The notes: a model not told the origin generated them from the sequence alone. A DNA stretch of 64,000 bases from an uncultured Actinomycetes bacterium (GCA_937927725.1 CALBSE010000011.1:16836-80835); one strand, 5' to 3'. Shown: positions 3,129 through 55,723, counted from the stretch's first letter. Numbers and translations: made by a program.

Positions 3129-3226
3129 CAGTTCTCCTTACAAATCCGCAAAACGTCATCCAATCACAGCCGCGACAGAGCGTGCATCCGACCCATAGGA
3201 TCGACGAAGCCGTCCGAGGGGGACTC

Positions 3227-4339
3227 ATGGAATCTGCAGTTGCAATGGCCGAGTTGGCCGAACTTGTTGCCGCCATCAACACCGATGCAAACAACGCACG
3301 ATGGAACTTCGTTTCCGATCTTGATCGTGCGTCCTATCGCGAATTCGCCATGCACTGTCTGCATCATTCATTGCAGTTTTGGCTCGAAGCCGACCCTCTG
3401 CGTCCCCGGTGGAATCGCTGGTTCATGCCCAACAAAAAACTTCTCGGCGACAACCCCGACACTGTCTATTACGGCACAGTGATTGATCCGACAAAGGCCT
3501 ACCGAATTCGCGGCAACATCGCGAACGCCTGTTACACCTCGTTCACCGTCGAAATTGGGACCGCCGGCGGTGCAATGTCGCAGAAGCTCGGACACACACT
3601 GAACGACAGTGAGTTTGAGGTCGATGCAGCGGGAAACTACGAACTCATTGCGTCACCAAACGGGTCAGGGCCCAACTGGTTGCGGCTTGATCCCGAGGCC
3701 GGTTCGATCACGACTCGTCACTATTTCGAATGGCAACGCTGTGCGGCGCTTGATCCAAACCTTCACATTCCCCTCACGATCGAACCCCTCGTTGATCCAG
3801 GAGCACCTCCTGTCCCCGACGATGCCGCCGTGGCAGCAAACATTCGTCGGGCCATCACGTTCCTCCGTTCGGTCACCGTGGATTGGGGTCATAACCCGAT
3901 GCCTCCGGGAGCAATCCCGTGGGTGTCGGCAGAACCGAATACGTTCACGAACCCTGCTGACCACGATGGCAATCTCGGTATCGGCTACGCGGCGACCGAC
4001 AACATCTATCGATCTGCCCGCTGGAAGCTCGCGCCCGATGAGGCGCTCGAGATTCGGGGCCGATGGCCGCACTGCACGTTCGCGAACATCGTGCTGTTCA
4101 ATAACCACATGCAAACGCCCAATTACGACCGACGTCTGGTTTCACTCAATCGCGTGCAGACCGAGCTCGACGACGACGGTTCCTGGCGGATGATCCTCGC
4201 CCACTCTGACCCGGGTCTTCCCAATTGGCTCGATACGCGAGGCCTTGAGCACGGAACCATGTTCTGGCGATTCCTGTTGCCGACAGAACCACTCACGCAA
4301 TTGGAAACTCGAGTAGTGAAATTCACTGACGTGCGCTGA
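3227..4339 (+). CDS. DUF1214-like protein
   Basis: GDNPDTVY, DPGLPNWLDT and MFWRF motifs; AGGGGG RBS before ATG 3227. Confidence 0.75.
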   Translation: MESAVAMAELAELVAAINTDANNARWNFVSDLDRASYREFAMHCLHHSLQFWLEADPLRPRWNRWFMPNKKLLGDNPDTVYYGTVIDPTKAYRIRGNIANACYTSFTVEIGTAGGAMSQKLGHTLNDSEFEVDAAGNYELIASPNGSGPNWLRLDPEAGSITTRHYFEWQRCAALDPNLHIPLTIEPLVDPGAPPVPDDAAVAANIRRAITFLRSVTVDWGHNPMPPGAIPWVSAEPNTFTNPADHDGNLGIGYAATDNIYRSARWKLAPDEALEIRGRWPHCTFANIVLFNNHMQTPNYDRRLVSLNRVQTELDDDGSWRMILAHSDPGLPNWLDTRGLEHGTMFWRFLLPTEPLTQLETRVVKFTDVR

Positions 4340-4459
4340 CTCATCGCTCCTTCGCCCTCGAGTCATCTCGAAGCGTAAAGAGGGGTGAACTGCTAGGTTC
4401 CCGTTTTCAGATAACGGACCGAACTGAAACCGGCCCAAAAGTAAAATCGTGAGGTTTCC

Positions 4460-5899
4460 ATGCTTGTGAAGCGATGCATCGCTGTTGCGTACGCAGCAAT
4501 TGTCCTCTTTGGAATCGCAACAGTTTCTCCTGCGAGCGCAGCAATGACTTCAACCGCCCCCGTCGCCTTCGACACGAGTGGTTTCGGAAACGTCGATTCG
4601 GATCCTGGTCAAATCTCATGTTGGTCTCCCGGCAACTGCGCTGCAGTCGGGTACATCCGAGATGTCATGGGAAGCGGAAATCGGATTCCCTTCGTCGCCA
4701 TCTCAACAAACGGAGTTTGGTCCGCTCCTTTCGAAATCGCCTTTCCCTCTGGCATCGTCAATGGAGACGCTTGGCTCAAGGTCGTCTCATGTACCGCGGA
4801 CAGTAATTGCGCCGCCGCCGGCATTTACCAAGACCAAGCCGGCGATGACCAAGGATTCGTCGCACTTGGATTCGGACCAATTTGGACACTCGGTCAACCA
4901 TTCACTTTCGGCGGCTCAGTCGGTCCAACGCAGTACCTGCAAGTCAACTCAATCGACTGCGCAGGAAACCTTGACTGCTCAATCGTGGGCCAAGTCACCA
5001 CCAACTTCGACCCTCATGCGTATGTAATCAACTCTGTCGGTGGAAGCTTCGGAACTGCTCAGATCATTGACTTCCCGGTTGGTGTACCTCACGTACCAAA
5101 TGATTCCCTTGAAGCGGTCTCGTGTGCAGAACCCGGTGGGTGCACCGCAATTGGATACATGTCTCCTGGCGGCGGAAATCAGGACCGAATCTTTTCCATT
5201 TCCAGTAGCTCCGGGGTTTGGGGAATTCCCGAATTTCTCCCGTTCGGAACCGGTTTCGGTGGGGGTCTCACCAGCGATATCTCGTGCCCAACACTCACGA
5301 ACTGCACCACCGGAGGATGGACCTACGGCCCTAATTCCACCATTCGCGCATGGATCGCCGTTCACTCGTCAAGTGGTTGGTCAGTTCAGATTGTCGACAC
5401 GCCGTCGGATGGTGGCGGCTCCTCCCCTTGGCAAGTAATCAATTCGGTTTCGTGTTCGACTGTTGCCGTTTGCATCGCTGCTGGTCGCTATTTGGATTCA
5501 ACGGGGACCAACGGATTTCTACTGACGACAACCGATGGTTGGGCAACATTCACCTATACCGCCGTCGCTGGGAACGCGAATGGGGTTTCCTGCACACCAT
5601 CGGGACCATGCCTTGCAGTCGTCGGAGAAAACAACGATTTCTTGCAGGGATTTGGTGGCCGCGAGTGGACAACCCCTCTGCAGATTTCATCGCCATCAGG
5701 AATCACTGACCCTTCTGTCGATTCACTTTCGTGCACCAATGACGGTGTCTGCGGAGTCTTTGCGTACGGGGACAATCTGAGTATTGGTTCCAATTACGCC
5801 GCGTACGCGTTCTTTGTGACTGTTGGAACCGACCCGATTCCGACAACAACAACCACCACAACTTCCGACCAACCGGTTGCTCCTGCGTTCACCGGTTAG
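4460..5899 (+). CDS. Secreted Cys-repeat (probable beta-propeller) protein ending in PAFTG
   Basis: Signal peptide ending PASA; eight (S/D)C-x5-C repeats; Thr-rich tail followed by PAFTG-stop. Confidence 0.75.
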   Translation: MLVKRCIAVAYAAIVLFGIATVSPASAAMTSTAPVAFDTSGFGNVDSDPGQISCWSPGNCAAVGYIRDVMGSGNRIPFVAISTNGVWSAPFEIAFPSGIVNGDAWLKVVSCTADSNCAAAGIYQDQAGDDQGFVALGFGPIWTLGQPFTFGGSVGPTQYLQVNSIDCAGNLDCSIVGQVTTNFDPHAYVINSVGGSFGTAQIIDFPVGVPHVPNDSLEAVSCAEPGGCTAIGYMSPGGGNQDRIFSISSSSGVWGIPEFLPFGTGFGGGLTSDISCPTLTNCTTGGWTYGPNSTIRAWIAVHSSSGWSVQIVDTPSDGGGSSPWQVINSVSCSTVAVCIAAGRYLDSTGTNGFLLTTTDGWATFTYTAVAGNANGVSCTPSGPCLAVVGENNDFLQGFGGREWTTPLQISSPSGITDPSVDSLSCTNDGVCGVFAYGDNLSIGSNYAAYAFFVTVGTDPIPTTTTTTTSDQPVAPAFTG

Positions 5900-26009: not shown

Positions 26010-26684
26010 ATGACACTCCGTCGCCGCTTTCTCATTGCTTCTGCCGCTTCACTTGCAGCACTTGTCGCACTTGCGGGCCCAGCATTCGCCCATGCCGATG
26101 CAACTGCGAAGGCAGAGCAAGCGGGTCGCACCGCGATCACCATTTCTCTGGAACATGGTTGCAACGGCAACCCGACAACTGGCCTTCGCGTTTCGTTGCC
26201 CACGGGTGCCACTGACGTCACCGGCACCAACACGGGGGGCTGGACCTCTACGGTTACCACCTCAGAAATCTCGTGGACGGGTGGATCCATCGCGGCAACA
26301 AAGTCTGGAGACTTCGAATTCAGTCTCGTATTGGCACAACCGGCCGGCGAAACCGTCACACTTCCAACTATCCAAACCTGCACAAACAACACAGAGATCG
26401 CATGGATTCAGGATGACAACGGCGATGAATCAGAAGCAAGTCATCCTGCTCCTCAAATTGAGGTGCCGAAAAACAGCACGTCAGCCACAACGTCGGTCGT
26501 TGCCGGCAATGGTTCGTCAACGACAGCAACTGCTCGGATGGCGACGCAATCAAACGCCGTGACTGACGAAGGCAGCAAGACCAGCACCGGCGGTCGGTAC
26601 GTCTTTATCGGGGTCTGCGCAGCGATTGCGATTGGTGCCGGAGTGCTTTTCCTCAAGTACCGCAAGAAGCCAACGAAGAGCTGA
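26010..26684 (+). CDS. YcnI/DUF1775 copper-binding membrane protein
   Basis: AFA-H mature N-terminus, EHGC, LPTIQTC...W, HPAP; C-terminal TM helix and basic tail. Confidence 0.85.
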   Translation: MTLRRRFLIASAASLAALVALAGPAFAHADATAKAEQAGRTAITISLEHGCNGNPTTGLRVSLPTGATDVTGTNTGGWTSTVTTSEISWTGGSIAATKSGDFEFSLVLAQPAGETVTLPTIQTCTNNTEIAWIQDDNGDESEASHPAPQIEVPKNSTSATTSVVAGNGSSTTATARMATQSNAVTDEGSKTSTGGRYVFIGVCAAIAIGAGVLFLKYRKKPTKS

Positions 26685-30895: not shown

Positions 30896-33394
30896 TCAGT
30901 CGTCGTCGGTGCCGAGCACCGGCGCAACCGACGCAACGGTTTCGCCGTCGGCCACATTCATGACCTTTACGCCGGTGGCATCGCGGCCCTGTGAAGAGAT
31001 TTCGCGGACCTCCATGCGAATCACCGTTCCGACACTATTGATCACGAAAATTTCGTCATCAATGCCGACCATGAAGGCCGCCACAACGGAGCCCTTCTTT
31101 TCGTTGATCTTGATGCCACGAACGCCCTGACCACCGCGGCCTTGACGATTGAACTTGTCGAGCTGGGTGCGCTTGCCGTACCCGCCATCGGTGACAAGGA
31201 GGATTGCGGCATCGTCACGAGTGACGTCGCAGGAAACAACTTCGTCGCCGGCGCGCATCTTCATGCCGCGAACGCCAGCAGCGGCGCGGCCCATGGCCCG
31301 AACTTCGTCCTCGGCGAACCGAATGGCCTGACCAGCCTTGGTAACCACGAGGATGTCATCGCCGCCATTCGTGGGAATGACCCGGACGAGTTCGTCGCCG
31401 TCTTTGAGGTTGATAGCGATGATGCCAGCGCGAAGCGAGGAGTCGTATTCGGTGAACTTGGTCTTCTTGACCTGACCGTTCTTGGTGCAGAAGAAGAGGA
31501 ACTTGTTCGACTCGTAATCACGCGTATCGATGATCGCTTGGATCTTTTCGTCGGGCTGCAACGGAAGAAGGTTGACCACGGCGGTGCCGCGCGCGGTGCG
31601 TTCCTTCATCGGGATTTCATGCGCCTTCAGGCGATACACACGTCCGCGAGTCGAGAAGAACAACAAGTAGGCGTGTGCTGTGGTGTGGATGATGTGCTGG
31701 ACGTAGTCCTCGTCCTTAAGCTTTGTGCCCGCAACACCACGACCACCGCGGCCCTGGACTTTGAACGCGTCGGAAGAAACGGTCTTGATATACCCCTTCG
31801 CCGACATAGTGACGACGAGGTCTTCGTCGTCGATGAGATCTTCGATGTCGAGATCGCCGACATCGAACGTGATCTGGCTGCGTCGAGGCTGTCCGTAGGT
31901 TTCACGAACCTTGCCCATTTCTTCTGCAATAACTGCACGCTTTTTGCCTTCGTCGCCAAGGATGGCTTCGAGTTCGGCGATGGTTTCGCGCAACTTCGCC
32001 ATTTCTTCCTCGAGTTGCGAACGGCCCAGCCGGGTAAGCCGAGACAGCTGCATATCGAGGATATGTTCGGCCTGTTCGGTCGAAAACTCGAACGGAGCCG
32101 CCATGAGCGCTTCGCGTGCCGCCTGCTTGTCGGCCGACGCACGAATGGCAGCGATGATTTCATCGATGAGATCGAGGGCCTTGAGAAGACCTTCGACGAT
32201 GTGGGCGCGACGCTGCGCTTCATCAAGGCGGTACTGCGAACGACGGGTGATGACTTCGATCTGGTGATCGATATAGGCCACAAGCGCATCGCGGAGGTTG
32301 AGTGTGCGAGGAATGCCGTCGACGAGTGCAACGGTGTTTACCGCAAAGTTCGTTTGCAGCGGCGTGCGCTTGTAGAGGTTATTGAGAATGACGAGCGCCG
32401 GCGCATCGCGCTTCAGACGAAGCACCAAGCGCATCTTGCCCTTGGCGGATTCGTCGTTGAGTTCGGCAATGCCTTCGAGTTCTCGATTATCGACCAGTTC
32501 CTTGACCTTGACGATGAACTGGTTCGGGCTCACCTGGTATGGCAGCTCGGTAATGACAATGAAATCGGAACGCGTTCCTTCTTCGATTTCGGCCTTACCG
32601 CGAAGCTTGATTGAACCTCGACCAGTTCGGTAGGCGTCGATGATTCCTTGGCGACCCATGATGAGCGCGCCGGTTGGGAAGTCGGGTCCTTTGACGAATT
32701 CCATGAGGTCGTCAGGTGTTGCTTCCGGATTTTGCAGAAGGTGATTCACCGCGTCGATGACTTCACCAAGGTTGTGCGGCGGAATGTTGGTCGCCATACC
32801 AACAGCGATGCCCTGCGAACCGTTTACCAACAGGTTGGGGAAACGGCTGGGGAGAACGACAGGTTCTTGGAACTCCCCGGAATAGTTGTCGATGAAATCG
32901 ACGGTGTTTTCGTCGATGTCGGCAAGCATGTCGAGCGCCATCGGCGCGAGACGACATTCGGTGTAACGCGCAGCAGCTGGTGGTTCATCGAGTGAGCCGA
33001 AGTTTCCCTTCGGATGCACCAATGGATGACGCAACGAAAACGACTGACCCATTCGAACCAATGCGTCGTAGATCGCGGAGTCGCCATGTGGGTGGTATTT
33101 GCCCATGACTTCGCCGGTGACGCGCGCACATTTCATGGTGGGGCGGTCGGGAAGGGCACGAAGGTCGTACATGCCCCAAAGAATTCGTCGATGAACGGGC
33201 TTCAAGCCATCGCGTGCGTCGGGAAGGGCACGTGAAACGATGACGGACATCGCGTAGTCGAGGAAGGAGCGTTCCATCTCCTCCTGAATCTCGATTGGCT
33301 CAATGGTGCCGAAGGTTGCCGGCGGAGCATCACCAGATCCGGTGTCGTCTCCTCCGGTGTTTTCGCCGTCGTCCGATGCCTTCTTTTTCGCCAT
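30896..33394 (-). CDS. gyrA: DNA gyrase subunit A
   Basis: YHPHGD, AAARYTE and GyrA-box QGRGGRG. Confidence 0.98.
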
Positions 33395-33429
33395 CTGATG
33401 CCTGTGGTTCCTGTCGTCGGGCGGCTTCC

Positions 33430-35367
33430 TCAGATGTCGAGGAAGCGCACGTCCTTCGCGTTTGTCTGAATGAAGTGCTTGCGGGATTCAACGTCGTCAC
33501 CCATGAGCACCGAGAAGATTTCGTCGGCGATCGACGCCTGTTCGACGGTGACCTGAAGCAAGGTGCGCTTGGTGGCATCCATAGTGGTGTCACCAAGTTC
33601 GTCGTAGTCCATCTCGCCGAGACCCTTGAGTCGTTGGAACTCTTTCTTATGGTCGGGCTTTTCCGACAAGAACGCCGCTTTCGCGGTGTCGTCCTTGAGA
33701 TAAATCTTCTCTTTGCCAACCACCGTTGAATACAGCGGCGGCTGGGCGATGTACACATGCTGCTGCTCGACGAGTTCTTTCATGTGGCGGAAGAAAAACG
33801 TCAGCAGAAGTGTGCGGATGTGTGAGCCGTCGACGTCGGCGTCACACATGAGGATGACTTTGTTGTAACGAATTTTTTCGACATCGAATTCCGCACTGAC
33901 ACCAGCACCGATAGCGGTGATCAGTGTTTGGACTTCGTTGTTCTTCAGCATTTTGTCGAGACGAGCTCGCTCAACGTTGAGGATCTTGCCGCGAATGGGG
34001 AGGATCGCCTGGGTGCGCGGATCACGGGCAGCGACTGCGGAACCACCGGCGGAATCACCTTCGACAATGAAGAGTTCACACTCATCGGGATTGCGACTTG
34101 CGCAATCTTTGAGTTTGTCGGGCATTCCCGCGCCCTCAAGTGCGGACTTTCGACGAGTGGCGTCGCGAGCATTTCGAGCGGCAAGTCGTGCGCGCGAGGC
34201 GAGCGTTGCCTTCTGAACAATTTTGCGGGCTTCGGCCGGATTTTCTTCGAGCCAATCAGCAAGACGTTCGTTCGTGGCCTTTTCAACCAACGAACGCATC
34301 GAAACGTTGCCCAACTTGCCCTTGGTCTGACCTTCGAACTGCGGTTCGCGCAACTTCACCGAAATAATCGCGGTGAGGCCTTCACGAATGTCGTCGCCAG
34401 TGAGGTTCTCTTCCTTTTCTTTCAGAAGAGACTTTGCCCGGGCGTATTTGTTGACGACATTGGTGATGGACTTTTTAAAGCCCTCTTCGTGCATGCCGCC
34501 TTCGATGGTGGCAATGCCATTTGCGAACGAATGCAGGCCGTCGGCGTTGAAGCCCGTGTTCCACTGGAACGCGATTTCGACTTCCTGATCTTCTTCGGCC
34601 TGCTCGTAGTAGCCGACCTTTTTGAACAGGGCCTCTTTGGAGGAGTTCAGGTGGCGCACAAAGTCGACGATGCCGCCGGCGTACTTGAAGATAATGACGT
34701 CGGAATTGGTTGCTTCGGGACGCTTGTCTTGGAATCGAATCTCAAGGCCCTTGTTGAGAAACGCCATCATTTGAAACCGCTCGAGCAACGTCTGCGCTCG
34801 GAACACCGTTTCATCAAAAATTGTGGGATCTGGCCAGAAGCGAACGGTGGTGCCCGTTCGGCCCTTTGGAGCCTTTCCGCGGACCTCAAGTTTGGTGGTG
34901 AGCTTTCCGCCGTTGGTGAAGTCCATGTAGTGGTGGTCGCCCGAGTGGTCGATCTCGACCTCGACGCGCGATGAAAGAGCGTTCACGACCGAGATACCGA
35001 CGCCGTGGAGACCGCCCGAGACCTTGTAGCCCCCGCCGCCAAATTTGCCGCCAGCGTGGAGGACAGTGAGAACGACTTCGGCCGCACTCATGCCCTTCAT
35101 CTTGGGATCGGGGTGCTTGTCGACCGGAATGCCTCGTCCGTCATCGACAACTTCGCAACTGCCATCGGGCATCAAGGTGACCTCAATGCGCGTTGCGTGT
35201 CCGGCCATTGCTTCGTCAACGGAGTTATCGACGACTTCGTACACCAAGTGATGCAGACCGGCAGGACCGGTTGAACCGATGTACATGCCGGGTCGTTTGC
35301 GCACCGCCTCGAGGCCCTCGAGGATCGTGATGTCTTTTGCGCCGTACTCTTCGGTGGTTTTCGCCAC
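33430..35367 (-). CDS. gyrB: DNA gyrase subunit B
   Basis: EVVDNSVDE, GGLHGVG, EGDSAGG and DADVDG. Confidence 0.98.
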   Translation of the reverse strand: MAKTTEEYGAKDITILEGLEAVRKRPGMYIGSTGPAGLHHLVYEVVDNSVDEAMAGHATRIEVTLMPDGSCEVVDDGRGIPVDKHPDPKMKGMSAAEVVLTVLHAGGKFGGGGYKVSGGLHGVGISVVNALSSRVEVEIDHSGDHHYMDFTNGGKLTTKLEVRGKAPKGRTGTTVRFWPDPTIFDETVFRAQTLLERFQMMAFLNKGLEIRFQDKRPEATNSDVIIFKYAGGIVDFVRHLNSSKEALFKKVGYYEQAEEDQEVEIAFQWNTGFNADGLHSFANGIATIEGGMHEEGFKKSITNVVNKYARAKSLLKEKEENLTGDDIREGLTAIISVKLREPQFEGQTKGKLGNVSMRSLVEKATNERLADWLEENPAEARKIVQKATLASRARLAARNARDATRRKSALEGAGMPDKLKDCASRNPDECELFIVEGDSAGGSAVAARDPRTQAILPIRGKILNVERARLDKMLKNNEVQTLITAIGAGVSAEFDVEKIRYNKVILMCDADVDGSHIRTLLLTFFFRHMKELVEQQHVYIAQPPLYSTVVGKEKIYLKDDTAKAAFLSEKPDHKKEFQRLKGLGEMDYDELGDTTMDATKRTLLQVTVEQASIADEIFSVLMGDDVESRKHFIQTNAKDVRFLDI

Positions 35368-35550
35368 GCTTTGGGCTTCCCCTTACCGGTACTTCGCCGG
35401 TGTCTTGATTGCGAGAACAACAGGTACAAACTGCGAATTCGACGTTCGAACTGCGTCTGTCACAGCCGAACAATCCTACCAGTGACACGCGTGTTTTCCG
35501 GGTATTACGACGCGCAAATCATGATGCGCGGACTTGTTGACGCGACAGGG

Positions 35551-35886
35551 TCAACCAGCCTGTTCTGGACGCACACGAACATCGATCGCGTCGATCGCGC
35601 CTTGGCCAAGCTCTGCTCGAAGTCGATCGATCAAATCGTGTTCGAGAAATCGCAACTGCGTTGCCCACGCTGGATCGGAAACGGCGACAACGAGGGTCGT
35701 CCCTTTCATTGCAACCGGACGACTCTGTGCAGCAACAGCGTCACCAACCAGTTCGGGCCAACGGCCAAAAATTCCGGTAGTGACATCGGCAGATGGTCCA
35801 CCGAGATGACGCACGATGCGATCAAGGCTTGCGTGCATCGACACGGGATCGCCCATTGAAGCGTCAGGCAGCGGTTCCCATGGCAT
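35551..35886 (-). CDS. dciA: DciA / DUF721 family protein
   Basis: W..LVG..VA...RP....G.L.V.VSDPAWATQL; located between recF and gyrB. Confidence 0.85.
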   Translation of the reverse strand: MPWEPLPDASMGDPVSMHASLDRIVRHLGGPSADVTTGIFGRWPELVGDAVAAQSRPVAMKGTTLVVAVSDPAWATQLRFLEHDLIDRLRAELGQGAIDAIDVRVRPEQAG

Positions 35887-35948
35887 TGGTGCAGTGTAGG
35901 GATTCGGCATCAAAACACGCCGGAACAGTGACGCGGCAGTTGTCGTTG

Positions 35949-37028
35949 CTACTCCGGTCGAATTGTTGCGTTCGAAACACGCAGCACCAACTCTGGAGAG
36001 GCTCCCGGCGGCAAACCAGCTGCGCTCGAAAGCACGGTTTGGCCTGGGGGTAAATGCTCGAGAAGTGCGGCGCTTCGGTCGGGGTCGAGTTCGGAGAACA
36101 CGTCGTCGAGCAACAAAATCGGCGAGGACCCAGTTGCGTCGGTAACGACACGGTGGGCAGCGAGGCGCAATGCCAATGCAAGTGATCGTTGCTCGCCTTG
36201 AGACGCGTGTGTCCGCGACGGCAACTGATCGAGGTGTAGTACGAGATCATCTCGGTGCGGGCCAACTAGCGAAACACCGCGGCGAAGTTCGTCGCGCCGC
36301 GCTGCCTCGAGCGCTGAGGCCAAACCTTCAACCCGCCATGGAGCGTCGTACGAAACGCTTACGGGAACAGGACGACCTGCAACTTGTGAATAGGCAAGGT
36401 CGAGTGCAGGACCGAGTTCTTGAACCAGTTCGTCCCGTGCATTCGCGAGCGCTTCGCCAGTTTCGACCAACTTCGCATCCCACACCATGAGCGTTGCTTC
36501 GACCTCAGGACTCAAACGCCCGCCACTTTGTTTTAGCAAGGCATTTCGTTGTCGGAGGATTCGGTCGAGGTCGGAGCGCAACGAATCAAAAGCGGGCCGG
36601 CGGGCAACCAACGCATCGTCGAGGTAGCGGCGTCGTTCGGCGGGACCACCCTTGACCAGCTCAAGGTCGTCGGGAGCGAACACTGAAACGCGGAGCGCGC
36701 CAAGGAGGTCGCGTGTTCGTGCCAATTTCTGCTTGTTTACCTGGACGCGCCCGCGCCCAGTGGACGCGATCTCTGCCTCGATAAGAAGTTGACGGCCTTC
36801 GCGTTCGCCTTCTGCCCGGACGATCGCCGAGGATGCTCCCGCTCGGACTAACGCATCGTTCGGCGCACCGCGGAACGACGAAAGGGTCGCGAGATAGCCG
36901 ATGGCTTCCATAACGTTGGTTTTTCCTTCGCCATTTTGGCCAAGCAGTGCAGTGAGCCCGGGTGCAAAGGCAATATCCGCGCTGGCATAAGACCGAAAGT
37001 CGGTGAGCCAGAGACGAGCGAGACGCAC
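35949..37028 (-). CDS. recF: DNA replication/repair protein RecF
   Basis: GQNGEGKTN, GPHRDDL, ASQGEQR and LLLDDVFSELD. Confidence 0.97.
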   Translation of the reverse strand: MRLARLWLTDFRSYASADIAFAPGLTALLGQNGEGKTNVMEAIGYLATLSSFRGAPNDALVRAGASSAIVRAEGEREGRQLLIEAEIASTGRGRVQVNKQKLARTRDLLGALRVSVFAPDDLELVKGGPAERRRYLDDALVARRPAFDSLRSDLDRILRQRNALLKQSGGRLSPEVEATLMVWDAKLVETGEALANARDELVQELGPALDLAYSQVAGRPVPVSVSYDAPWRVEGLASALEAARRDELRRGVSLVGPHRDDLVLHLDQLPSRTHASQGEQRSLALALRLAAHRVVTDATGSSPILLLDDVFSELDPDRSAALLEHLPPGQTVLSSAAGLPPGASPELVLRVSNATIRPE

Positions 37029-37029
37029 G

Positions 37030-38130
37030 TCAGTTTCGGATCGGCATCAACAAGTACAAGAAATCTTCGCTCTCGTTGCCGCGGATAAGTACCGGACTTG
37101 TTGGTCGCGCAATTTCGATCGTGATTTCGTCAGAAGGTGCAGCTTCAATGCCGGCCCGGAGATATTCGGGGTTGAACGAGATTTCGAGTTCTTCGCCAAC
37201 GTGACGAGCATCAATGACCTCGTCCGCCTTACCAACATCGAAACTTTCTGCGATGAGTTCCACAGAATCGTTCTTGATGTCGAGACGAATCTTGGTGTTT
37301 TCCTTCGAAAGCAACCCAACTCGTTTCAGTGCTTCGAGGAACGTTTCGCGTTCGATCGTGAGTCGGTTCGGATGCGAATCGGCCGACTTCGGAAGGAGAT
37401 TTTCGTAGTCGGGGAAACTTCCATCGAGAAGTTGGCTCACAAGACGGACGCCATCGACCTCAAACGAAACGTGACGTTCAGCGAGGCGAATCGTGACGTT
37501 CTCAGCGGTCGTGAGAAGTCGGTTGAGTTCTTTCAGTGCTGACGAAGGAACCAGAACCTTCTGACCTTCGGTAAGAATCGATGTGCCTGGAAGGTCACGG
37601 ATGGCCAAGCGGTATGTATCGGTCGCGACTAAACGAATACCCGTTCCGTGAGCGGCGATCGAAACACCCGTGAGTTCAAACTTGCGGGACTCGTCAGTGC
37701 TCGCAGCAGACACCACCTGCGAGATGGCATCGCGTAGAAGTGCGGCGTCGATCGTGACCGCAGATTCGGGGGTTTCGGGCATTGGCGGGTAATCAACCGC
37801 AATGGTCTTCACTGCGAACTGCGAACGCCCGGATCCGATGCGAACCTCGTTGTCGTCGGCCTCGAAGGTGACCGCTCCTTCAGGGAGATTGCGAACAATC
37901 TCGGTGAGAAGTTTTGAAGGGACCAAAACAGTGCCATCGCGAGAACCAGAGACAGAAGCGGTTGCAATGATCGTGAGATCGAGATCACTTCCGGTGACCT
38001 GAAGTTGATCGCCAACCAACACGAGGTTGAGACCCAGAAGGGCCTGGCGACCTGAGCTGCGTGTCGTGACACCACGAGACGCTACGGAGATGGCTTCGAC
38101 GAGTGGATCTCGCTCACAACGGAACTTCAC
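37030..38130 (-). CDS. dnaN: DNA polymerase III beta clamp
   Basis: GSDLD, VATDTYRLA, FPDY, FNPEYL and YLLMPIR. Confidence 0.97.
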   Translation of the reverse strand: MKFRCERDPLVEAISVASRGVTTRSSGRQALLGLNLVLVGDQLQVTGSDLDLTIIATASVSGSRDGTVLVPSKLLTEIVRNLPEGAVTFEADDNEVRIGSGRSQFAVKTIAVDYPPMPETPESAVTIDAALLRDAISQVVSAASTDESRKFELTGVSIAAHGTGIRLVATDTYRLAIRDLPGTSILTEGQKVLVPSSALKELNRLLTTAENVTIRLAERHVSFEVDGVRLVSQLLDGSFPDYENLLPKSADSHPNRLTIERETFLEALKRVGLLSKENTKIRLDIKNDSVELIAESFDVGKADEVIDARHVGEELEISFNPEYLRAGIEAAPSDEITIEIARPTSPVLIRGNESEDFLYLLMPIRN

Positions 38131-38160
38131 GTCGGCTCACTTTCCTGACAGATGGTCTTG

Positions 38161-38387
38161 CTTGTTGTAGTTGTAAAAAAGAATGAGAAATTGGTAGTAG
38201 TTGTAATAAGGGTTGTGGATTGTGGACAACGCGGCATAGTTCCAGCGTGATGCTGTTTTTGTTGTCCCTGTGTCATCCACAGTGATCCACAGTTTGAACG
38301 GTGGGAGTGACAGCGCGGGGGATCACCCACAAGTCGTCCACTTTTCATGCAGTACCGCGCGCGCCGTGGTCCACCGGGTTGTCCACC
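38161..38387. other. oriC: Replication origin oriC (dnaA-dnaN intergenic)
   Basis: AT-rich tract, DnaA-trios 38192-38209, boxes at 38214, 38221, 38273, 38283, 38323, 38334, 38367 and 38379. Confidence 0.9.
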
Positions 38388-38449
38388 GCGCGAGCGTTCG
38401 AAACTGCGCGCGGACGTTCGGCTCAAGTGGTGGTTGAGGGTCACGGGCG

Positions 38450-39856
38450 TCAGCTGTTTCTGATTCGCTGGGTGAGCTCAGTGACCTGGTCATAAATCTG
38501 GCGGCGCTCTTTCATAAGGCCGCTGATTTTCTCGACCGCGTGAATCACCGTGGTGTGATCACGGCCGCCGAACTCTCGGGCTATGGCTGGATAACTGAGG
38601 TCGGTCATCTCTCGCATGACGTACATGCCGATCTGCCGAGCGGTGACCAATGGTCGACGGCGGCTTTGCCCGCGAATTTCATCGATTGTGAAATCAAACA
38701 TTTCCGAGGTCTTCTCGAGAATGAGCGCCGGTGTAATAGGACGAGGTTGGGTGTTGGTGAGGATGTCACTGAGGACTCCCTCGGCCAACTCCACCGTGAG
38801 CGGGTTCCCCGTGAGGCTGGCAAACGCGCAGACACGAATGAGGGCGCCTTCGAGTTCACGGATGTTGTTCGTGATATTCGAGGCAATGAACTCGAGGACG
38901 TCGGCTGGCGGAGCGATGGGTTCGCGCTCGGCCTTCTTGCGAAGAATTGCGAGGCGGGTCTCGAGTTCCGGTGGGTTGATCTCAGTGATGAGGCCCATCT
39001 TGAAACGGCTCCGGAGCCGATCTTCGAGAGTAGAAATGGCATCTGGCGGGCGATCGGAGGAAAGCACGATCTGCGCGTTGGCCTGGTAAAGCGATTCGAA
39101 CGTGTGGAAAAGCTCCTCTTGGAGACCTTCCTTGCCTTCGATGATCTGAATATCGTCGAGGAGGAGCACATCGATTTCTCGGTAGCGCTTTTTGAACTCC
39201 GGCATCGTGTTCTGGCGAATCGCGTCGACGTATTGATTGAGGAATTGCTCGGTCGAGACGTAACGAACCTGATGGCCCGGGTAGATCTCGCGGACGTAAT
39301 TGGCGATGGCTTGGAGAAGGTGGGTTTTGCCCAGCCCTGCGTCGCCATAGATAAAGAGTGGGTTGTAGGACTTCGCCGGAGTCTCGGCCACGCTGAGGGC
39401 GGCGGCGTGGGCGAAGCGATTTGAGGTGCCGGTGACGAATGCGTCGAAGGTGTAGCGAGGATTGACGGGTAACCCCAGTTCCTGCTCCGGCGCCAGGGTT
39501 GTCCCCAGATTCGCAGGAGTTTTCAACAGATTCTGGGAATCAGTAGGGAAATCTGTGGAATTCTCTGTGGAAGGGCTTGGGGAGAAGTTGGCAGAGGCGG
39601 GGGCGACGTCGGTCTGAACCTCGATAGAGAGACGGACACCACTTTGCCCAATATCGGCGAGCGCGCCATTAACCAGGGTGAAGTAGCGGGTTTCGATCCG
39701 CTCCTTCACCACAGAACTGGGCACAGCGACCGAAAGCGTTGTCCCGTCGAGACCGAGGGGGGTCACCATTGAAAACGTCGTGAGCCACACGGCCTCGGAC
39801 ACCTGCTCGCGCAGCGCGACCGTGCACGTCGTCCACAACTGTTCGGCTTGGTCCAC
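38450..39856 (-). CDS. dnaA: Chromosomal replication initiator (start codon approximate)
   Basis: NPLFIYGDAGLGKTHLL, LLLDDIQ and FGGRDHTTV; GTG 39856 or 39862. Confidence 0.97.
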   Translation of the reverse strand: MDQAEQLWTTCTVALREQVSEAVWLTTFSMVTPLGLDGTTLSVAVPSSVVKERIETRYFTLVNGALADIGQSGVRLSIEVQTDVAPASANFSPSPSTENSTDFPTDSQNLLKTPANLGTTLAPEQELGLPVNPRYTFDAFVTGTSNRFAHAAALSVAETPAKSYNPLFIYGDAGLGKTHLLQAIANYVREIYPGHQVRYVSTEQFLNQYVDAIRQNTMPEFKKRYREIDVLLLDDIQIIEGKEGLQEELFHTFESLYQANAQIVLSSDRPPDAISTLEDRLRSRFKMGLITEINPPELETRLAILRKKAEREPIAPPADVLEFIASNITNNIRELEGALIRVCAFASLTGNPLTVELAEGVLSDILTNTQPRPITPALILEKTSEMFDFTIDEIRGQSRRRPLVTARQIGMYVMREMTDLSYPAIAREFGGRDHTTVIHAVEKISGLMKERRQIYDQVTELTQRIRNS

Positions 39857-39884
39857 CTGCACGACGGCCCCTGACAATGGGTTT

Positions 39885-39960
39885 GGTTCCACAACAACGT
39901 CCACACTTGTGGAAAACCCGACGTCTGTCCACACGGAGTGGTCCGCCTCAGTTCTGCACA
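39885..39960. promoter_or_regulatory. DnaA-box cluster upstream of dnaA
   Basis: GGTTCCACA 39885, ACGTCCACA 39897, TGTGGAAAA 39908, CTGTCCACA 39925, TTCTGCACA 39952. Confidence 0.8.
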
Positions 39961-40192
39961 GGTATGCCCCGCTCACGAGCGCCGCTACCGAGGCCCTGTG
40001 GACGGGCGGAGGACGGTAGCACCTCACTGATGTTGCTGCATCCGGCCTCCACCCTCTAGCGTTGTCACCCGAACAGGTGTCGGGCTCCTTGCGCACGCGT
40101 CAGGCCGGGCCCGTTTCCACACCACAACCGTTGTCTATTGAAGCAACGATCTGTGGACCCCTTCTGGGTTCATCAGGTCGCGGAGGCCCCTC

Positions 40193-40327
40193 GTGAAGCG
40201 TACTTTTCAGCCCAATAACCGCCGCCGAGCGAAGAAGCATGGCTTCCGTTCCCGCATGTCCACTCGCGCTGGACGCAACGTTCTGCGGTCGCGCCGGCTC
40301 AAGGGCCGTCGACGTCTGTCGGCCTGA
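40193..40327 (+). CDS. rpmH: 50S ribosomal protein L34 (absent from the ORF track, 44 aa)
   Basis: Translates as [44 protein letters not shown]; RBS GGAGG. Confidence 0.97.
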
Positions 40328-40677
40328 TCTGGCGAGTACGTGACCGCCGCACGTTCCAAGAACTGCGGCGTCGCGGCCGTCGGGTCCGTAGTGGCACCGT
40401 GTCGGTGACCATGTTGGCTCCATCACCATTAACCGGCGACGAGCCGCCGCGCGTCGCGTTCGCAGTGTCCCGCAAGGTCGGAACTGCGGTGGTTCGGAAT
40501 CGTCTTCGCCGCCAAATACGCGCCTATTTGGGCGAGATCCGCGCGGGAGATTCCACCAGATTTCCCTCAGGTGCTTGGCTTTTTGCGATCCAGCCCAGTG
40601 CCGCCGATGCAAGTCGTGAGGACCTGTTGCGAGATGTGGACAGCTGTCTCGATCGACTTGTAGGTACGTCCCGATGA
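40324..40677 (+). CDS. rnpA: RNase P protein component (probable CTG start)
   Basis: [41 protein letters not shown]. Confidence 0.88.
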
Positions 40678-40964
40678 GCACAGCGTGTCGGCACGATCAC
40701 GATTCTTTGCCGGCATCTGACCCGGCGCGTCGCCTTTCCATTCCTGCGCGTCTGACGACATGGTGTGTGCGCGGCTATCAATGGTTGTTTGCCGGCAGGG
40801 TTTCTCCCTGCCGTTATGTCCCCTCCTGTTCGTCCTACGCCCTTGAAGCATTCGAGGTGCATGGGTTCGTGCGGGGCTCCTGGTTGTCGATTCGACGACT
40901 GGGCCGGTGCCATCCTTGGGGTGGATCCGGATGGGATCCCGTTCCCGATAGGAAGGCCGCCTAG
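40674..40964 (+). CDS. yidD: Membrane protein insertion efficiency factor
   Basis: [10 protein letters not shown] and [14 protein letters not shown]. Confidence 0.95.
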
Positions 40965-40967
40965 TCA

Positions 40968-42149
40968 ATGGAAGCGTTTTTTAAAGCCTTCGCGTCAGTG
41001 TTGGCGTTCTTCTACGACATCACCGGGAACTACGCCGTTGCCATCATCCTGCTGACGCTGGTCGTGATGATCATCGTTACGCCGCTGACCCTCAAGGGCA
41101 CGCGCTCGATGATGGTGATGCAGCAACTCCAGCCGGAAATGAAGAAGATTCAGACCCGGTACAAAGACGATCGACAGAAGCTCAACGAAGAACTTCTGAA
41201 GTTTTATAAGGAAAACAGCATTAATCCACTTGGTGGCTGTTTGCCCCTGTTGGTCCAGATGCCCGTTTTCCTCGTGCTGTACCAGGTGCTTCGGGGCCTC
41301 ACGCGTCGAGTAAGCGACCTGGGTGCAGATGTTGGTTGGGTCGCGAACCAGTTCGGTCTCGGAAACACCCCAACGAAAGCGCCATCATTCGAACGTGTGT
41401 TCGATCCCGCATGGATCAACCCGTCGACGAAGATGTACCAAAACCTCTCAACCTCCTACCAGATGGAGGCCTTTGGCCTTGATCTTTCGGAGAGTGCGAG
41501 CAAAGCAATGCAGCAGGGCATCGGACATGCACTGCCGTTCTTCGTTCTGATCGCGATTGTGGCCGTGAGTGGCTTTATTCAGCAGCGACAGATGCAGGGA
41601 CGTAACCCCGGAGCGCAGACCAATAACCAGCAACAGATGATCATGAAGATCATGCCGTTCTTCTTGCCGGTGATTTCGTTTGGATTGCCCGCCGGTCTTG
41701 TCCTTTACTTCGCGGTGTCAAACCTCTACCGAATCGGTCAGCAGGCGTTTATCTCGAAGAGCATCTACGGCGTTAGTGCCCCCGATGGCACCAAGTCCTG
41801 GAAGCATCTCTTTGGTTTCGGTGTGCAGCCCAAGGCCGCCCCGAAGGCCAAGAAGTCAGGGTCGAAGTCGATCAGCGCAACCTCACGCCCGGCAAAGAAT
41901 GCCGGAGCTAAGGGCGGCGCCGCGAAGAACTCGACCAAGGCACCAGCCAAGGCTGGCGCCTCCAAGGGCGGCCGGACCACCGGTCGCACCACCACCAGTT
42001 CCCGAGACACCAAGGGCAGCGATTCTTCCAAGGGACCCGATAAGGGTTCGGATCGCGCAACGTCGACACCGTCGACCCCCTCGTCCGACGCCGGCGATGC
42101 ATCACCGTCGCAGCCGTTGCAGCCTCGGGTGCGCAAAAAGAAGAGGTAA
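40968..42149 (+). CDS. yidC: Membrane protein insertase with long basic tail
   Basis: LQPEMKKIQ, NPLGGCLPLLVQMP and PAGLVLYF. Confidence 0.95.
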   Translation: MEAFFKAFASVLAFFYDITGNYAVAIILLTLVVMIIVTPLTLKGTRSMMVMQQLQPEMKKIQTRYKDDRQKLNEELLKFYKENSINPLGGCLPLLVQMPVFLVLYQVLRGLTRRVSDLGADVGWVANQFGLGNTPTKAPSFERVFDPAWINPSTKMYQNLSTSYQMEAFGLDLSESASKAMQQGIGHALPFFVLIAIVAVSGFIQQRQMQGRNPGAQTNNQQQMIMKIMPFFLPVISFGLPAGLVLYFAVSNLYRIGQQAFISKSIYGVSAPDGTKSWKHLFGFGVQPKAAPKAKKSGSKSISATSRPAKNAGAKGGAAKNSTKAPAKAGASKGGRTTGRTTTSSRDTKGSDSSKGPDKGSDRATSTPSTPSSDAGDASPSQPLQPRVRKKKR

Positions 42150-54590: not shown

Positions 54591-54608
54591 GCGCAGGAAC
54601 TGGTTGAT

Positions 54609-55682
54609 TCAGCCCGTAAATGCTGGAGTGATTTCAGGGTCAGTCGGCGACGTTGTTGATGTAGTAGTTGTTGGTGCTTGACATGGCGTAAGTCCAACAC
54701 CGAGTGGGTTCGTTCCGACGCTTATGGTGCTTGTGATGGTGTTGGTTGCGATATCGACAACTGCAACGGAGTTCGTGCCGTACGCCGCGACATAGGCAGT
54801 CGAGCCATCGGATGTGATTGCAATTCCTTCGGGAAGCGATCCTGCGCCCGCGCTAAACGTTGCCGAAACGATGTCTGTTGCGGTGTCAATCACCGAAACG
54901 CTGCTGCTTGAATAGTTGGTGACGTAGGCCTTGGTCCCGTCGGGAGTGATTGCGATATGTGTTGGGGAGATTCCGACGACGACGTTGGTGACAAGGGTAT
55001 TTGTTGCGGTGTCAATCACTGACACGTTGCCGGAGTTGAAATTCGTGACATAGACAGCGTCTCCGCTGGGGGTAATGGCAACACCTTGAGGAGCGGTTCC
55101 TACGTTTACTGAATTCGCGAGGGTGTTGGTGGTGATGTCAATGACATACACCGAGTTGCCTGAGGAGTTAGCCACGTAGGCGGTGGAACCGTCGGGAGTG
55201 ATCGCGATTCCGATTGGGCTTGCACCCACGACTACTGGAGATGAGACAACGGTGTTCGTCGCGAGATCGATGATCGACACGTTGTTGGTGCCGTAGTTCG
55301 TGACGTAGGCGGTGGAACCGTCGGGAGTGATTGCAATTCCAAGCGGTACGGCACCAACGCCGATGTTGCCAGTGACCGTGTTAGTGGCGATATCAATAAT
55401 CGACACTGTGTCCGAAGCAGAGTTCGTTACATATGCGGTTGTGCCATCGAGGGAGAGAGCAACCTCATTTGGACTCGATCCGACACTTATTGGCGAGCTC
55501 ACAGCGTTGGACATCGTGTCGATGACTGAAACGTTGTTGCCGCTGTAATTGGCCACAACCAACGTTGATTGGCAAGTTCCCGATGCACCGACAGAAGTGC
55601 CCTCGGTGACAAAGAGTCCGATCGCTGTAAGCGCGATGAGGCAGGCAGAGAGTGCCTTGAAGTTCTTCAACATGGTGGTCAC
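54609..55682 (-). CDS. Secreted YVTN beta-propeller (YncE-like) protein ending in PAFTG
   Basis: Seven P.GIAITPDG..AYVTN repeats; Thr-rich tail followed by PAFTG-stop. Confidence 0.88.
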   Translation of the reverse strand: MTTMLKNFKALSACLIALTAIGLFVTEGTSVGASGTCQSTLVVANYSGNNVSVIDTMSNAVSSPISVGSSPNEVALSLDGTTAYVTNSASDTVSIIDIATNTVTGNIGVGAVPLGIAITPDGSTAYVTNYGTNNVSIIDLATNTVVSSPVVVGASPIGIAITPDGSTAYVANSSGNSVYVIDITTNTLANSVNVGTAPQGVAITPSGDAVYVTNFNSGNVSVIDTATNTLVTNVVVGISPTHIAITPDGTKAYVTNYSSSSVSVIDTATDIVSATFSAGAGSLPEGIAITSDGSTAYVAAYGTNSVAVVDIATNTITSTISVGTNPLGVGLTPCQAPTTTTSTTSPTDPEITPAFTG

Positions 55683-55723
55683 CCTAGGTCAGCCCACAGG
55701 GAACCCACTGTGAAGAGTGACTC

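What the first reader, a model, noticed from the sequence alone, without database searches (positions are those of the whole stretch)
5843..5899. Shared anchor-less C-terminal signal (Thr-rich linker + PAFTG-stop) on two unrelated secreted proteins
Seen: 4460-5899 ends TTTTTTTSDQPVAPAFTG-stop and 54609-55682 ends TTTSTTSPTDPEITPAFTG-stop. The two proteins have different repeat folds, lie about 49 kb apart and both carry signal peptides. All five codons differ (cct gcg ttc acc ggt vs cca gca ttt acg ggc), so the peptide rather than the DNA is conserved. Established: sortase motifs (LPxTG, actinobacterial LAxTG) are normally followed by a TM helix and a basic tail; both are absent here, and reading through either stop gives no TM helix. 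Inference: an undescribed surface-attachment or sorting tag, for example transpeptidation at T-G or ligation via the terminal Gly, with a dedicated enzyme encoded elsewhere.
Basis: partly seen in the sequence, partly recalled or inferred. Interest (0 to 1): 0.82.

Follow-up and report, generated by a model that had tools for sequence, protein, structure and literature searches.

The report
Anchor-less PxFTG C-terminal sorting tag
Two unrelated exported proteins in this freshwater actinobacterial genome end in the same five residues, PAFTG, and this short tail recurs on dozens of unrelated exported proteins of the same bacterial class, at the spot where related surface proteins carry a sortase cell-wall anchor; it looks like an undescribed surface-sorting signal.

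Summary
Both ORFs (4460..5899 +, 54609..55682 -) have Sec-type signal peptides, a Thr/Pro-rich linker and end in PAFTG-stop. No TM helix follows in any frame.

It is not a coincidence of two proteins. Pattern scans found 47 ORFs in 24 sequence clusters ending P-x-F-T-G-stop. Nearly all come from Acidimicrobiia-type Actinomycetota. A viral-contig control gave 0 of 37.

- 18 of 19 complete examples have signal peptides, against 7 of 59 background genes.
- Synonymous codons vary freely, so the peptide is what is conserved.
- The carriers are typical surface-protein domains: thioester+DUF5979, choice-of-anchor Q beta-helix, YVTN and PD40 propellers.
- In the thioester family, homologs carry canonical LPxTG or LAFTG + TM + Arg-rich sortase signals at the same position.
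- NCBIfam detects those canonical tails but has no model for this one, and no paper mentions it.

Best reading: a lineage-wide, anchor-less C-terminal sorting or attachment tag. It is most likely cut at T|G by a sortase-type transpeptidase, but that mechanism is inferred and no enzyme was found.

Both genes are single-gene insertions absent from close relatives.

The parts
4460..5899 (+). Gene for protein 1 (479 aa): signal peptide, Cys-pair-repeat beta-propeller, Thr-rich linker, PAFTG, stop TAG
   Evidence: ORF list. No Pfam or NCBIfam family. 152 homologs, mostly Actinomycetota. AlphaFold pLDDT 84.5 with beta-propeller matches.
4460..4540 (+). Signal peptide of protein 1 (aa 1-27, ...SPASA|A)
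   Evidence: Read from the sequence: basic n-region, hydrophobic core, A-x-A site. Passes the heuristic SP test.
5825..5881 (+). Linker of protein 1, GTDPIPTTTTTTTSDQPVA (aa 456-474), including the semi-conserved D-Q-P-V-A lead-in
   Evidence: Residues 463-479 have pLDDT below 50 in the model, so they are disordered. The lead-in pattern [DE]-[PQ]-[VI]-x recurs in other tails.
5882..5899 (+). PAFTG (5882-5896) and stop TAG (5897-5899)
54609..55682 (-). Gene for protein 2 (357 aa): signal peptide, 7-bladed YVTN beta-propeller, Thr-rich linker, PAFTG, stop TGA
   Evidence: TIGR02276 at 221.7 bits, PF21783 and PF10282.
55584..55682 (-). Signal peptide of protein 2 (about aa 1-33)
   Evidence: Read from the sequence. 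Passes the heuristic SP test.
54627..54677 (-). Linker of protein 2, APTTTTSTTSPTDPEIT (aa 336-352)
54609..54626 (-). PAFTG (54612-54626) and stop TGA (54609-54611)
4343..5899 (.). Single-gene insertion carrying protein 1. It is absent from close relatives, where the ortholog of gene 3182..4339 ends 23 nt before the MOSC gene.
   Evidence: The 23 nt upstream of MOSC are homologous in the window and the relatives.
54595..55723 (.). Single-gene insertion carrying protein 2. In 10 contigs of close relatives the CCA-enzyme and methyltransferase genes are adjacent.

Best explanation
The terminal [D/E]-[P/Q]-[V/I]-x-P-x-F-T-G-COOH, with x mostly Ala, is a C-terminal protein-sorting or surface-attachment signal. 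It is used by Acidimicrobiia and some neighbouring deep-branching Actinomycetota.

Proposed pathway:
1. The proteins are exported by Sec (shown: signal peptides).
2. The Thr/Pro-rich, disordered linker acts as a wall-spanning stalk (inferred).
3. The last residues are recognised outside the membrane by a transpeptidase of the sortase type or a functional analogue.
4. That enzyme cleaves the Thr-Gly bond, releases only glycine, and transfers the protein to a cell-envelope acceptor (inferred by analogy).

The tag is effectively a sortase pentapeptide (compare class E LAxTG; C. diphtheriae SpaB LAFTG) that has lost the TM helix and basic tail.

My sub-confidences: about 0.85-0.9 that it is a selected, functional C-terminal tag; about 0.4-0.45 that it works by sortase-like T|G transpeptidation.
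For: Recurrence and specificity:
- The pattern [VIM]xPAFTG-TGA gave 0 real cases in 37 viral-contig hits.
- It gave about 20 real cases in 117 genome tiles and about 15 in 120 metagenome stretches.
- All real genome hits come from records titled Acidimicrobiia, Acidimicrobiales, Microthrix or 'Actinomycetes' MAGs, plus one Solirubrobacteraceae. A tile labelled Bifidobacterium breve actually matches freshwater Actinomycetota.
- Pooled, 47 ORFs end this way. The 45 of at least 150 aa fall in 24 sequence clusters.

Selection acts on the peptide. Pro, Ala and Thr each use four codons, and all three stop codons occur.

The carriers are exported. 18 of 19 have a signal peptide against 7 of 59 background genes (Fisher p 4e-11). 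The linker P+T+S fraction is 0.37 against 0.17 (p 2e-8).

The carriers are classic surface-protein modules: TED+DUF5979, DUF5979, DUF7507, Beta_helix, PD40, beta-lactamase. Two carry the NCBIfam 'choice-of-anchor Q' domain directly before the linker.

Positional swap with sortase signals. Among 120 homologs of the TED-DUF5979 protein P0241 (ends QPAFTG), 28 carry LPxTG, LANTG or LAFTG + TM + Arg-rich tail. An example is P0340...ALAFTGDNNRPTILAALAAILVGALLVVLARARRTQ, 62% identical. Others end P-[ANRKPEQT]-FTG-stop. A protein-1 homolog (P0101) has LPATG+TM+RRR. YVTN homologs carry PGF-CTERM, IPTL-CTERM and LPXTG-type tails.

xAFTG is a proven actinobacterial sortase motif (SpaB LAFTG: PMC12445094, PMC9046445). 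Class E sortases of soil and freshwater Actinobacteria use LAXTG (PMC5148588).
Against: - The two other defining parts of a sortase signal, the hydrophobic helix and the basic tail, are absent. Nothing obvious holds the substrate at the membrane.
- In T-G register the motif has Pro at P4 and an invariant Phe at P2. Sortase signals have Leu at P4, Pro or Ala at P3 and a variable P2. The P3 position here is variable (A, S, V, T, N, R, K, P, E, Q).
- From my own knowledge, not tested here: S. aureus SrtA handles LPXTG with a free terminal Gly carboxylate poorly in vitro.
- No sortase-like TLxTC motif and no recurrent neighbouring gene were seen in 418 kb around tail-bearing genes. No canonical sortase substrate was seen in 20 tail-bearing sources, the window plus 19 genome tiles.
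- Solirubrobacterales members of the TED family end in ...VTG...GLG or ...GRG. Only the terminal Gly is common to all. That fits recognition of a C-terminal glycine as well as it fits T|G cleavage.
- Positions P, A, F, T, G and -7 were fixed by the search pattern in most examples. Unbiased variation comes only from about 25 by-catch or homolog cases.
Confidence: 0.45

Rival explanations
1. A different, dedicated and so far unknown enzyme recognises the free C-terminal glycine with its P-x-F-T lead-in. It would be a non-sortase transpeptidase or ligase, or a C-terminal modifying enzyme. It links or modifies the protein through the terminal residue, giving a new sorting system rather than a sortase variant.
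For: The only feature shared by all anchor-less ends in the TED family (FTG, VTG, GLG, GRG) is the terminal Gly. The register and conservation pattern (Pro at P4, invariant Phe at P2, variable P3) do not fit known sortase classes (PMC5148588). No sortase was seen near any carrier. The lineage restriction fits a lineage-specific enzyme.
Against: No candidate enzyme was found. A YkuD gene lies next to one locus and LPG_synthase_TM genes near two loci, but neither recurs. There is no energy source outside the cell for carboxylate ligation unless a peptide bond is cleaved. Close homologs with LAFTG+TM point to sortase chemistry.
Confidence: 0.25
2. The tail is a non-covalent docking tag. The last 7-9 residues ([V/I]-x-P-A-F-T-G with free carboxylate) bind as a beta-strand to a membrane- or wall-anchored receptor domain (PDZ-like or similar). 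This retains the protein at the surface or delivers it to a protease or chaperone.
For: The motif extends beyond five residues, with hydrophobic V/I/L at -7 in 42 of 47 and frequent D/E-P/Q before it. That resembles C-terminal peptide ligands. No leaving group beyond Gly is present. Docking would explain the lack of a TM segment.
Against: Position -7 was fixed by the search pattern in most cases. A terminal Gly is unusual for PDZ-type ligands (my own knowledge). The exact positional swap with covalent sortase signals, and the T-G dipeptide, would then be coincidental. No receptor candidate was found.
Confidence: 0.15
3. The tails are inert remnants. Sortase signals were truncated by stop codons right after TG, producing freely secreted versions of former wall-anchored proteins, and the tail itself does nothing.
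For: Close homologs with a full LAFTG+TM signal exist. Both window genes are dispensable accessory insertions.
Against: 24 unrelated sequence clusters share the same ending with the stop always directly after G. Third codon positions are randomised while the peptide is kept. The P at -5 differs from the L of sortase signals yet is invariant. Tandem paralogs with diverged linkers keep the tail (L080, L184, L232). Remnants would decay.
Confidence: 0.07

Closest known systems
Sortase cell-wall sorting signals, especially class E LAxTG of Actinobacteria (for example C. diphtheriae SpaB LAFTG; S. coelicolor chaplins)
   Same: Located at the extreme C-terminus of Sec-exported surface proteins, after a Pro/Thr-rich stalk. 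Contains a ...A-F-T-G core with a T-G dipeptide. Occupies the same slot as LPxTG/LAFTG signals in homologs of the same families. Found in soil and freshwater Actinomycetota.
   Different: No hydrophobic helix and no basic tail; the protein ends at the Gly. Pro rather than Leu at P4, invariant Phe at P2, variable P3. Not detected by TIGR01167 or other NCBIfam sortase-signal models, which do detect the canonical homologs. No sortase has been linked to it.
Exosortase, archaeosortase and rhombosortase signals (PEP-CTERM, PGF-CTERM, IPTL-CTERM, GlyGly-CTERM, MYXO-CTERM and others)
   Same: A short lineage-specific signature at the C-terminus of many unrelated exported proteins, often after Thr/Pro-rich linkers. 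It sits on 'choice-of-anchor' domains (NF041518 hits) and on YVTN propellers that elsewhere carry these signals.
   Different: All of those signals are tripartite (motif + TM helix + basic cluster) and depend on polytopic membrane enzymes. Here there is only the motif.
Braun lipoprotein C-terminal Lys attachment by L,D-transpeptidases
   Same: An anchor-less C-terminal residue of an exported protein serves for covalent attachment to peptidoglycan. One TED-family locus has a YkuD gene next door.
   Different: Lpp is the amine acceptor, through the Lys side chain. A C-terminal Gly offers no amine. The YkuD neighbour is not recurrent.
C-terminal secretion or retention signals without a TM segment (T9SS CTD, type I secretion signals, PDZ-binding C-termini)
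   Same: C-terminal, with no membrane helix.
   Different: Those are 50-100-residue domains or loosely defined signals of diderm secretion systems. Here the signal is a strictly conserved 5-9-residue peptide on Sec-exported proteins of monoderm-type Actinomycetota.

Membership tests
Sortase-dependent cell-wall sorting signal (LPXTG / class E LAXTG) | N-terminal secretion signal on the substrate | tested here: met
   Both window proteins have one, and 18 of 19 complete tail-bearing proteins do.
Sortase-dependent cell-wall sorting signal (LPXTG / class E LAXTG) | Pentapeptide L-P/A-x-T-G | tested here: inconclusive
   T-G is invariant and Ala at P3 is frequent, as in class E. But P4 is Pro rather than Leu, P2 is an invariant Phe, and P3 varies in homologs.
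Sortase-dependent cell-wall sorting signal (LPXTG / class E LAXTG) | Hydrophobic membrane-spanning segment after the pentapeptide | tested here: not met
   The stop codon follows Gly directly. Of 23 loci, 22 have no hydrophobic stretch in any downstream frame. L111 scores 3.1 in one frame and was not followed up.
Sortase-dependent cell-wall sorting signal (LPXTG / class E LAXTG) | Positively charged C-terminal tail | tested here: not met
   Absent; the protein ends at Gly.
Sortase-dependent cell-wall sorting signal (LPXTG / class E LAXTG) | Match to curated signal models (TIGR01167 LPXTG_anchor, strep_LAETG, Microco_LAVTG and others) | tested here: not met
   PAFTG and VTG tails give no sorting-signal hit at E up to 10 (one tail gives an unrelated lipoprotein model, NF047807, at E 3.4). 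Of four canonical tails of TED homologs, the two LPATG ones pass TIGR01167's cutoff of 15.9 (28.4 and 16.3 bits); the LAFTG and LPLTG tails match it below cutoff (14.7 and 11.3 bits). This is the positive control.
Sortase-dependent cell-wall sorting signal (LPXTG / class E LAXTG) | A sortase encoded in the same genome that processes the signal | not testable with these tools
   Whole genomes could not be fetched. No TLxTC motif was found in 418 kb of carrier loci or in the window.
Exosortase/archaeosortase-type signals (PEP-CTERM, PGF-CTERM and others) | Signature motif followed by a TM helix and a basic cluster | tested here: not met
   No TM or basic cluster. No NCBIfam CTERM model hit.
'Choice-of-anchor' carrier domains (NCBIfam) | A domain found immediately upstream of varied C-terminal sorting signals | tested here: met
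   P0265 (KE-4) and P0282 hit NF041518 choice_anch_Q at 69 and 53 bits (cutoff 25), just before the linker and PAFTG. Protein 2 hits choice_anch_I only below cutoff.

The most novel reading that the evidence does not exclude
P-x-F-T-G-COOH, with the related ...VTG, ...GLG and ...GRG ends in Thermoleophilia, is the substrate signal of a previously unrecognised protein-sorting system. It would need no membrane-retention segment. A dedicated enzyme, either a divergent sortase that acts without retention or an entirely new transpeptidase or ligase, would recognise a free C-terminal glycine and attach dozens of variable accessory surface proteins to the envelope. The carriers are abundant freshwater and soil Actinomycetota.
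Probability: 0.35. Interest if true: 0.9.

Novelty: new variant of a known kind. Interest (0 to 1): 0.76.

Why it matters
Every well-characterised C-terminal sorting signal of bacteria and archaea (sortase, exosortase, archaeosortase, rhombosortase) has three parts: a motif, a TM helix and a basic tail. A strictly conserved tag that ends at the Gly of a T-G dipeptide would show one of two things. Either envelope attachment can work without membrane retention, or a new enzyme class exists.

The carriers are Acidimicrobiia, which are abundant in lakes, soils and activated sludge. Their surface biology is almost unknown.

The tag marks their variable surface proteome. Both window genes are strain-specific insertions, and tandem paralog arrays are common. 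It is therefore a handle for predicting surface proteins and phage- or grazer-exposed antigens.

It could also yield a peptide-ligation tool with a one-residue leaving group. The tag is too short for HMM-based annotation, which probably explains why it has been missed.

Tried and rejected
- Tail-only profile search of the 5.8-billion-protein database. A local test showed that even training sequences of 12-30-aa tail HMMs score only 15-33 bits, at E of about 0.02 to over 1000. Abandoned.
- Homolog search with protein 2. The top 120 are longer YVTN proteins from many phyla. None has the tail, though they show every other anchor type. The exhaustive representative search returned only giant multi-propeller proteins. 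Uninformative.
- The look-up of encoding contigs on protein 1: not on record.
- Guilt by neighbourhood. All-against-all BLAST of ORFs from carrier loci found only housekeeping families (ClpC, SDR, saccharopine dehydrogenase, ABC ATPases). Pfam context of six TED-family loci showed YkuD once and LPG_synthase_TM twice, neither recurrent.
- Search for a sortase signature (TLxTC) and for canonical LPxTG+TM substrates in carrier loci: none. The sample is too small to conclude absence.
- Read-through or a hidden TM after the stop: rejected.
- DNA- or RNA-level function of the conserved end: rejected, because synonymous sites vary.
- 'Bifidobacterium breve' as a carrier (L109): rejected. The same proteins occur in freshwater-metagenome Actinomycetota, so the contig is probably mis-binned.

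Full report
**1. The observation**

ORF 4460..5899 (+) encodes 479 aa ending ...GTDPIPTTTTTTTSDQPVAPAFTG, then TAG. ORF 54609..55682 (-) encodes 357 aa ending ...APTTTTSTTSPTDPEITPAFTG, then TGA. No other six-frame ORF of at least 60 aa in the window contains P-x-[FYW]-T-G anywhere.

The five codons differ at every third base. Both N-termini are Sec-type signal peptides.

The next genes lie 23 nt (MOSC, same strand) and 18 nt (CCA-adding enzyme, convergent) from the stops. There is therefore no room for a TM segment, and no downstream frame encodes one.

BLASTP finds no relationship between the two proteins apart from the tail.

Protein 2 is a YVTN beta-propeller. Protein 1 has no Pfam or NCBIfam family. 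It belongs to a large actinobacterial Cys-pair repeat family. Its AlphaFold model (pLDDT 84.5, residues 463-479 disordered) is also a beta-propeller.

**2. Source organism**

The window holds the dnaA-dnaN-recF-gyrB-gyrA origin region. Its housekeeping proteins cluster at 90% identity or more with 'freshwater metagenome' and 'Actinomycetota bacterium' proteins. Its RplI clusters with that of Acidimicrobiia isolate KE-4. It is a freshwater Acidimicrobiia genome.

**3. Recurrence**

The back-translated pattern RTNNNNCCNGCNTTYACNGGNTGA was scanned against three collections.

| Collection | Hits | Real tails |
|---|---|---|
| Viral contigs (negative control) | 37 | 0 (all short off-frame ORFs) |
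| Metagenome contigs | 120 stretches | about 15 |

- The real genome hits are ends of long ORFs preceded by P/T/V-rich linkers.
- Every one comes from a record titled Acidimicrobiia, Acidimicrobiales, Ca. Microthrix or 'uncultured Actinomycetes'. The exceptions are one Solirubrobacteraceae and one mislabelled tile.
- By-catch in the same loci added tails that the pattern did not force. These use TAA stops and the variants PSFTG, PVFTG and PTFTG.
- Tandem arrays occur: L080 x2, L091 x2, L109 x2, L184 x3, L232 x3.
- Pooled, 47 ORFs of at least 100 aa end P-x-F-T-G-stop. The 45 of at least 150 aa fall into 24 sequence clusters once the last 40 aa are removed. The largest cluster is protein 1's own family, with 8 members.
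- Consensus: [D/E]-[P/Q]-[V/I]-x-P-[A>S,V,T]-F-T-G-COOH.

**4. Peptide-level selection and export**

Pro, Ala and Thr each use four codons across 23 tails, and all three stop codons occur.

18 of 19 complete carriers pass a simple signal-peptide test, against 7 of 59 other window genes (p 4e-11). The 35 aa before the tail are 37% P+T+S, against 17% in background C-termini (p 2e-8). Chance hits such as a betaproteobacterial FolC lack both features.

**5. What carries the tag**

Pfam finds TED+DUF5979, DUF5979, DUF7507, Beta_helix, PD40 and beta-lactamase, and several carriers have no family. NCBIfam finds the 'choice-of-anchor Q' domain directly before the linker in two carriers, including the KE-4 protein. 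These are the module types that elsewhere sit in front of LPXTG or PEP-CTERM-type signals.

**6. The swap**

120 homologs of the TED-DUF5979 carrier P0241 (ends QPAFTG) fall into classes.

- Canonical sortase signals: LPxTG, LANTG or LAFTG + TM + Arg-rich tail. There are 28 of these, including five '...LAFTGDNN...' proteins about 60% identical to the query.
- Anchor-less P-x-FTG-stop, with x = A, N, R, K, P, E, Q or T.
- Many members, among them all the Solirubrobacterales-named ones with such ends, finishing in ...VTG, ...GLG or ...GRG.

A protein-1 homolog (P0101) likewise has LPATG+TM+RRR. YVTN homologs carry PGF-CTERM-, IPTL-CTERM- and LPXTG-type ends.

The anchor-less tail therefore occupies the slot of a sorting signal. 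LAFTG is the proven sortase motif of C. diphtheriae SpaB (PMC12445094, PMC9046445). LAXTG is the class E signal of soil and freshwater Actinobacteria (PMC5148588).

**7. Is it described?**

- NCBIfam 20.0 (June 2026) holds many sorting-signal models. It detects the canonical tails of the TED homologs: TIGR01167 at 28.4 and 16.3 bits against a cutoff of 15.9, plus Microco_LAVTG, strep_LAETG, GVDTG_CTERM and others.
- It gives no sorting-signal hit for PAFTG or VTG tails at E up to 10.
- NCBI names the carriers 'hypothetical protein' or by their domain.
- Full-text searches for PAFTG, AFTG+sortase, FTG/VTG motifs and Acidimicrobiia with sortase or sorting signal found nothing relevant.

**8. Mechanism**

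*Shown:* export signal, disordered P/T-rich stalk, strictly conserved terminal peptide, positional equivalence to sortase signals, lineage restriction.

*Inferred:* a transpeptidase recognises the tail, cleaves T|G and transfers the protein to an envelope acceptor.

*Against a plain sortase reading:*
- There is no TM or basic tail for retention.
- P4 is Pro, P2 is an invariant Phe and P3 is variable.
- No sortase motif, canonical substrate or recurrent neighbour was seen in 418 kb of carrier loci.
- The GLG and GRG ends share only the terminal Gly with the rest.

The rivals I keep open are a dedicated non-sortase enzyme acting on a C-terminal Gly, and a non-covalent docking tag. Inert remnants are very unlikely given the conservation pattern.

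**9. Genomic behaviour**

In contigs of close relatives, the CCA-enzyme and methyltransferase genes are adjacent. The ortholog of gene 3182..4339 ends 23 nt before the MOSC gene. Both PAFTG genes of the window are therefore single-gene insertions, part of a variable surface proteome.

**10. Caveats**

- The pattern fixed P, A, F, T, G, the TGA stop and V/I/M at -7. Unbiased variation rests on about 25 by-catch and homolog cases.
A rough extrapolation is hundreds in the species-representative set.
- Taxon labels are the submitters' record titles.
- Signal peptides were judged by a heuristic and by eye.

**11. Verdict**

This is a real, recurrent tag that I could not find described anywhere. I classify it as a new anchor-less variant of the C-terminal sorting-signal kind. 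There is a substantial chance that it marks a new sorting system.

Noticed in passing
window 54595-55723 and 4343-5899: Both PAFTG genes are single-gene insertions. In close relatives (same 90% clusters for the CCA enzyme and the MOSC protein) the flanking genes are directly adjacent. The 23 nt upstream of MOSC are conserved.
   Followed up: yes
P0298-P0401 (homologs of L074 protein); L156, L158, L160: Many thioester-domain+DUF5979 homologs, including all seven named Solirubrobacterales/Solirubrobacteraceae/Baekduia (Thermoleophilia), end anchor-less in ...VTG, ...FTG, ...GLG or ...GRG after basic, Pro-rich linkers. This may be a sister set of C-terminal-Gly tags in another class.
   Followed up: partly
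window 4460-5899; P0002-P0120: Protein 1 belongs to a large actinobacterial family with no Pfam or NCBIfam model. It has about eight repeats, each with an invariant Cys pair (SVSCxSxGxCxAxG) and a Trp, and is predicted to be a beta-propeller. Most members end ...QGFVVSQTG without a linker.
   Followed up: partly
L080, L091, L109, L146, L184, L232, L238: Tail-bearing genes often lie in tandem arrays of 2-3 paralogs. The linkers have diverged but the tails are kept.
   Followed up: partly
L109 (CAMAYJ010000006.1): This contig, labelled as a Bifidobacterium breve MAG, carries two tail-bearing genes with RR-containing (Tat-like) signal peptides. Identical or near-identical proteins are from freshwater-metagenome Actinomycetota, so the contig is probably mis-binned.
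   Followed up: partly
window 56941-59121: A class A PBP (Transgly+Transpeptidase in the orthologs) ends in a long Ser/Thr-rich tail, ...[22 protein letters not shown], with no PAFTG.
   Followed up: no
window 26010-26684: An exported 224-aa protein has an S/T-rich linker, then ...KTSTGG, a TM helix and a KYRKKPTKS tail. This is a tripartite C-terminal anchor with a T-G-G motif that is neither LPxTG nor LAxTG.
   Followed up: no
window 30896-42149: Chromosomal origin region: gyrA, gyrB, recF, dnaN, dnaA, yidC, jag. DUF6049, the CCA enzyme, DUF5318 and a PBP lie further along, in typical actinobacterial synteny.
   Followed up: partly
L156/L157 8997-9755; L155 7500-8621; L156 14300-15358: A YkuD L,D-transpeptidase gene lies divergently next to one VTG-ended TED gene. 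LPG_synthase_TM genes lie within 3 kb of two TED loci. Neither is seen at three other loci.
   Followed up: partly
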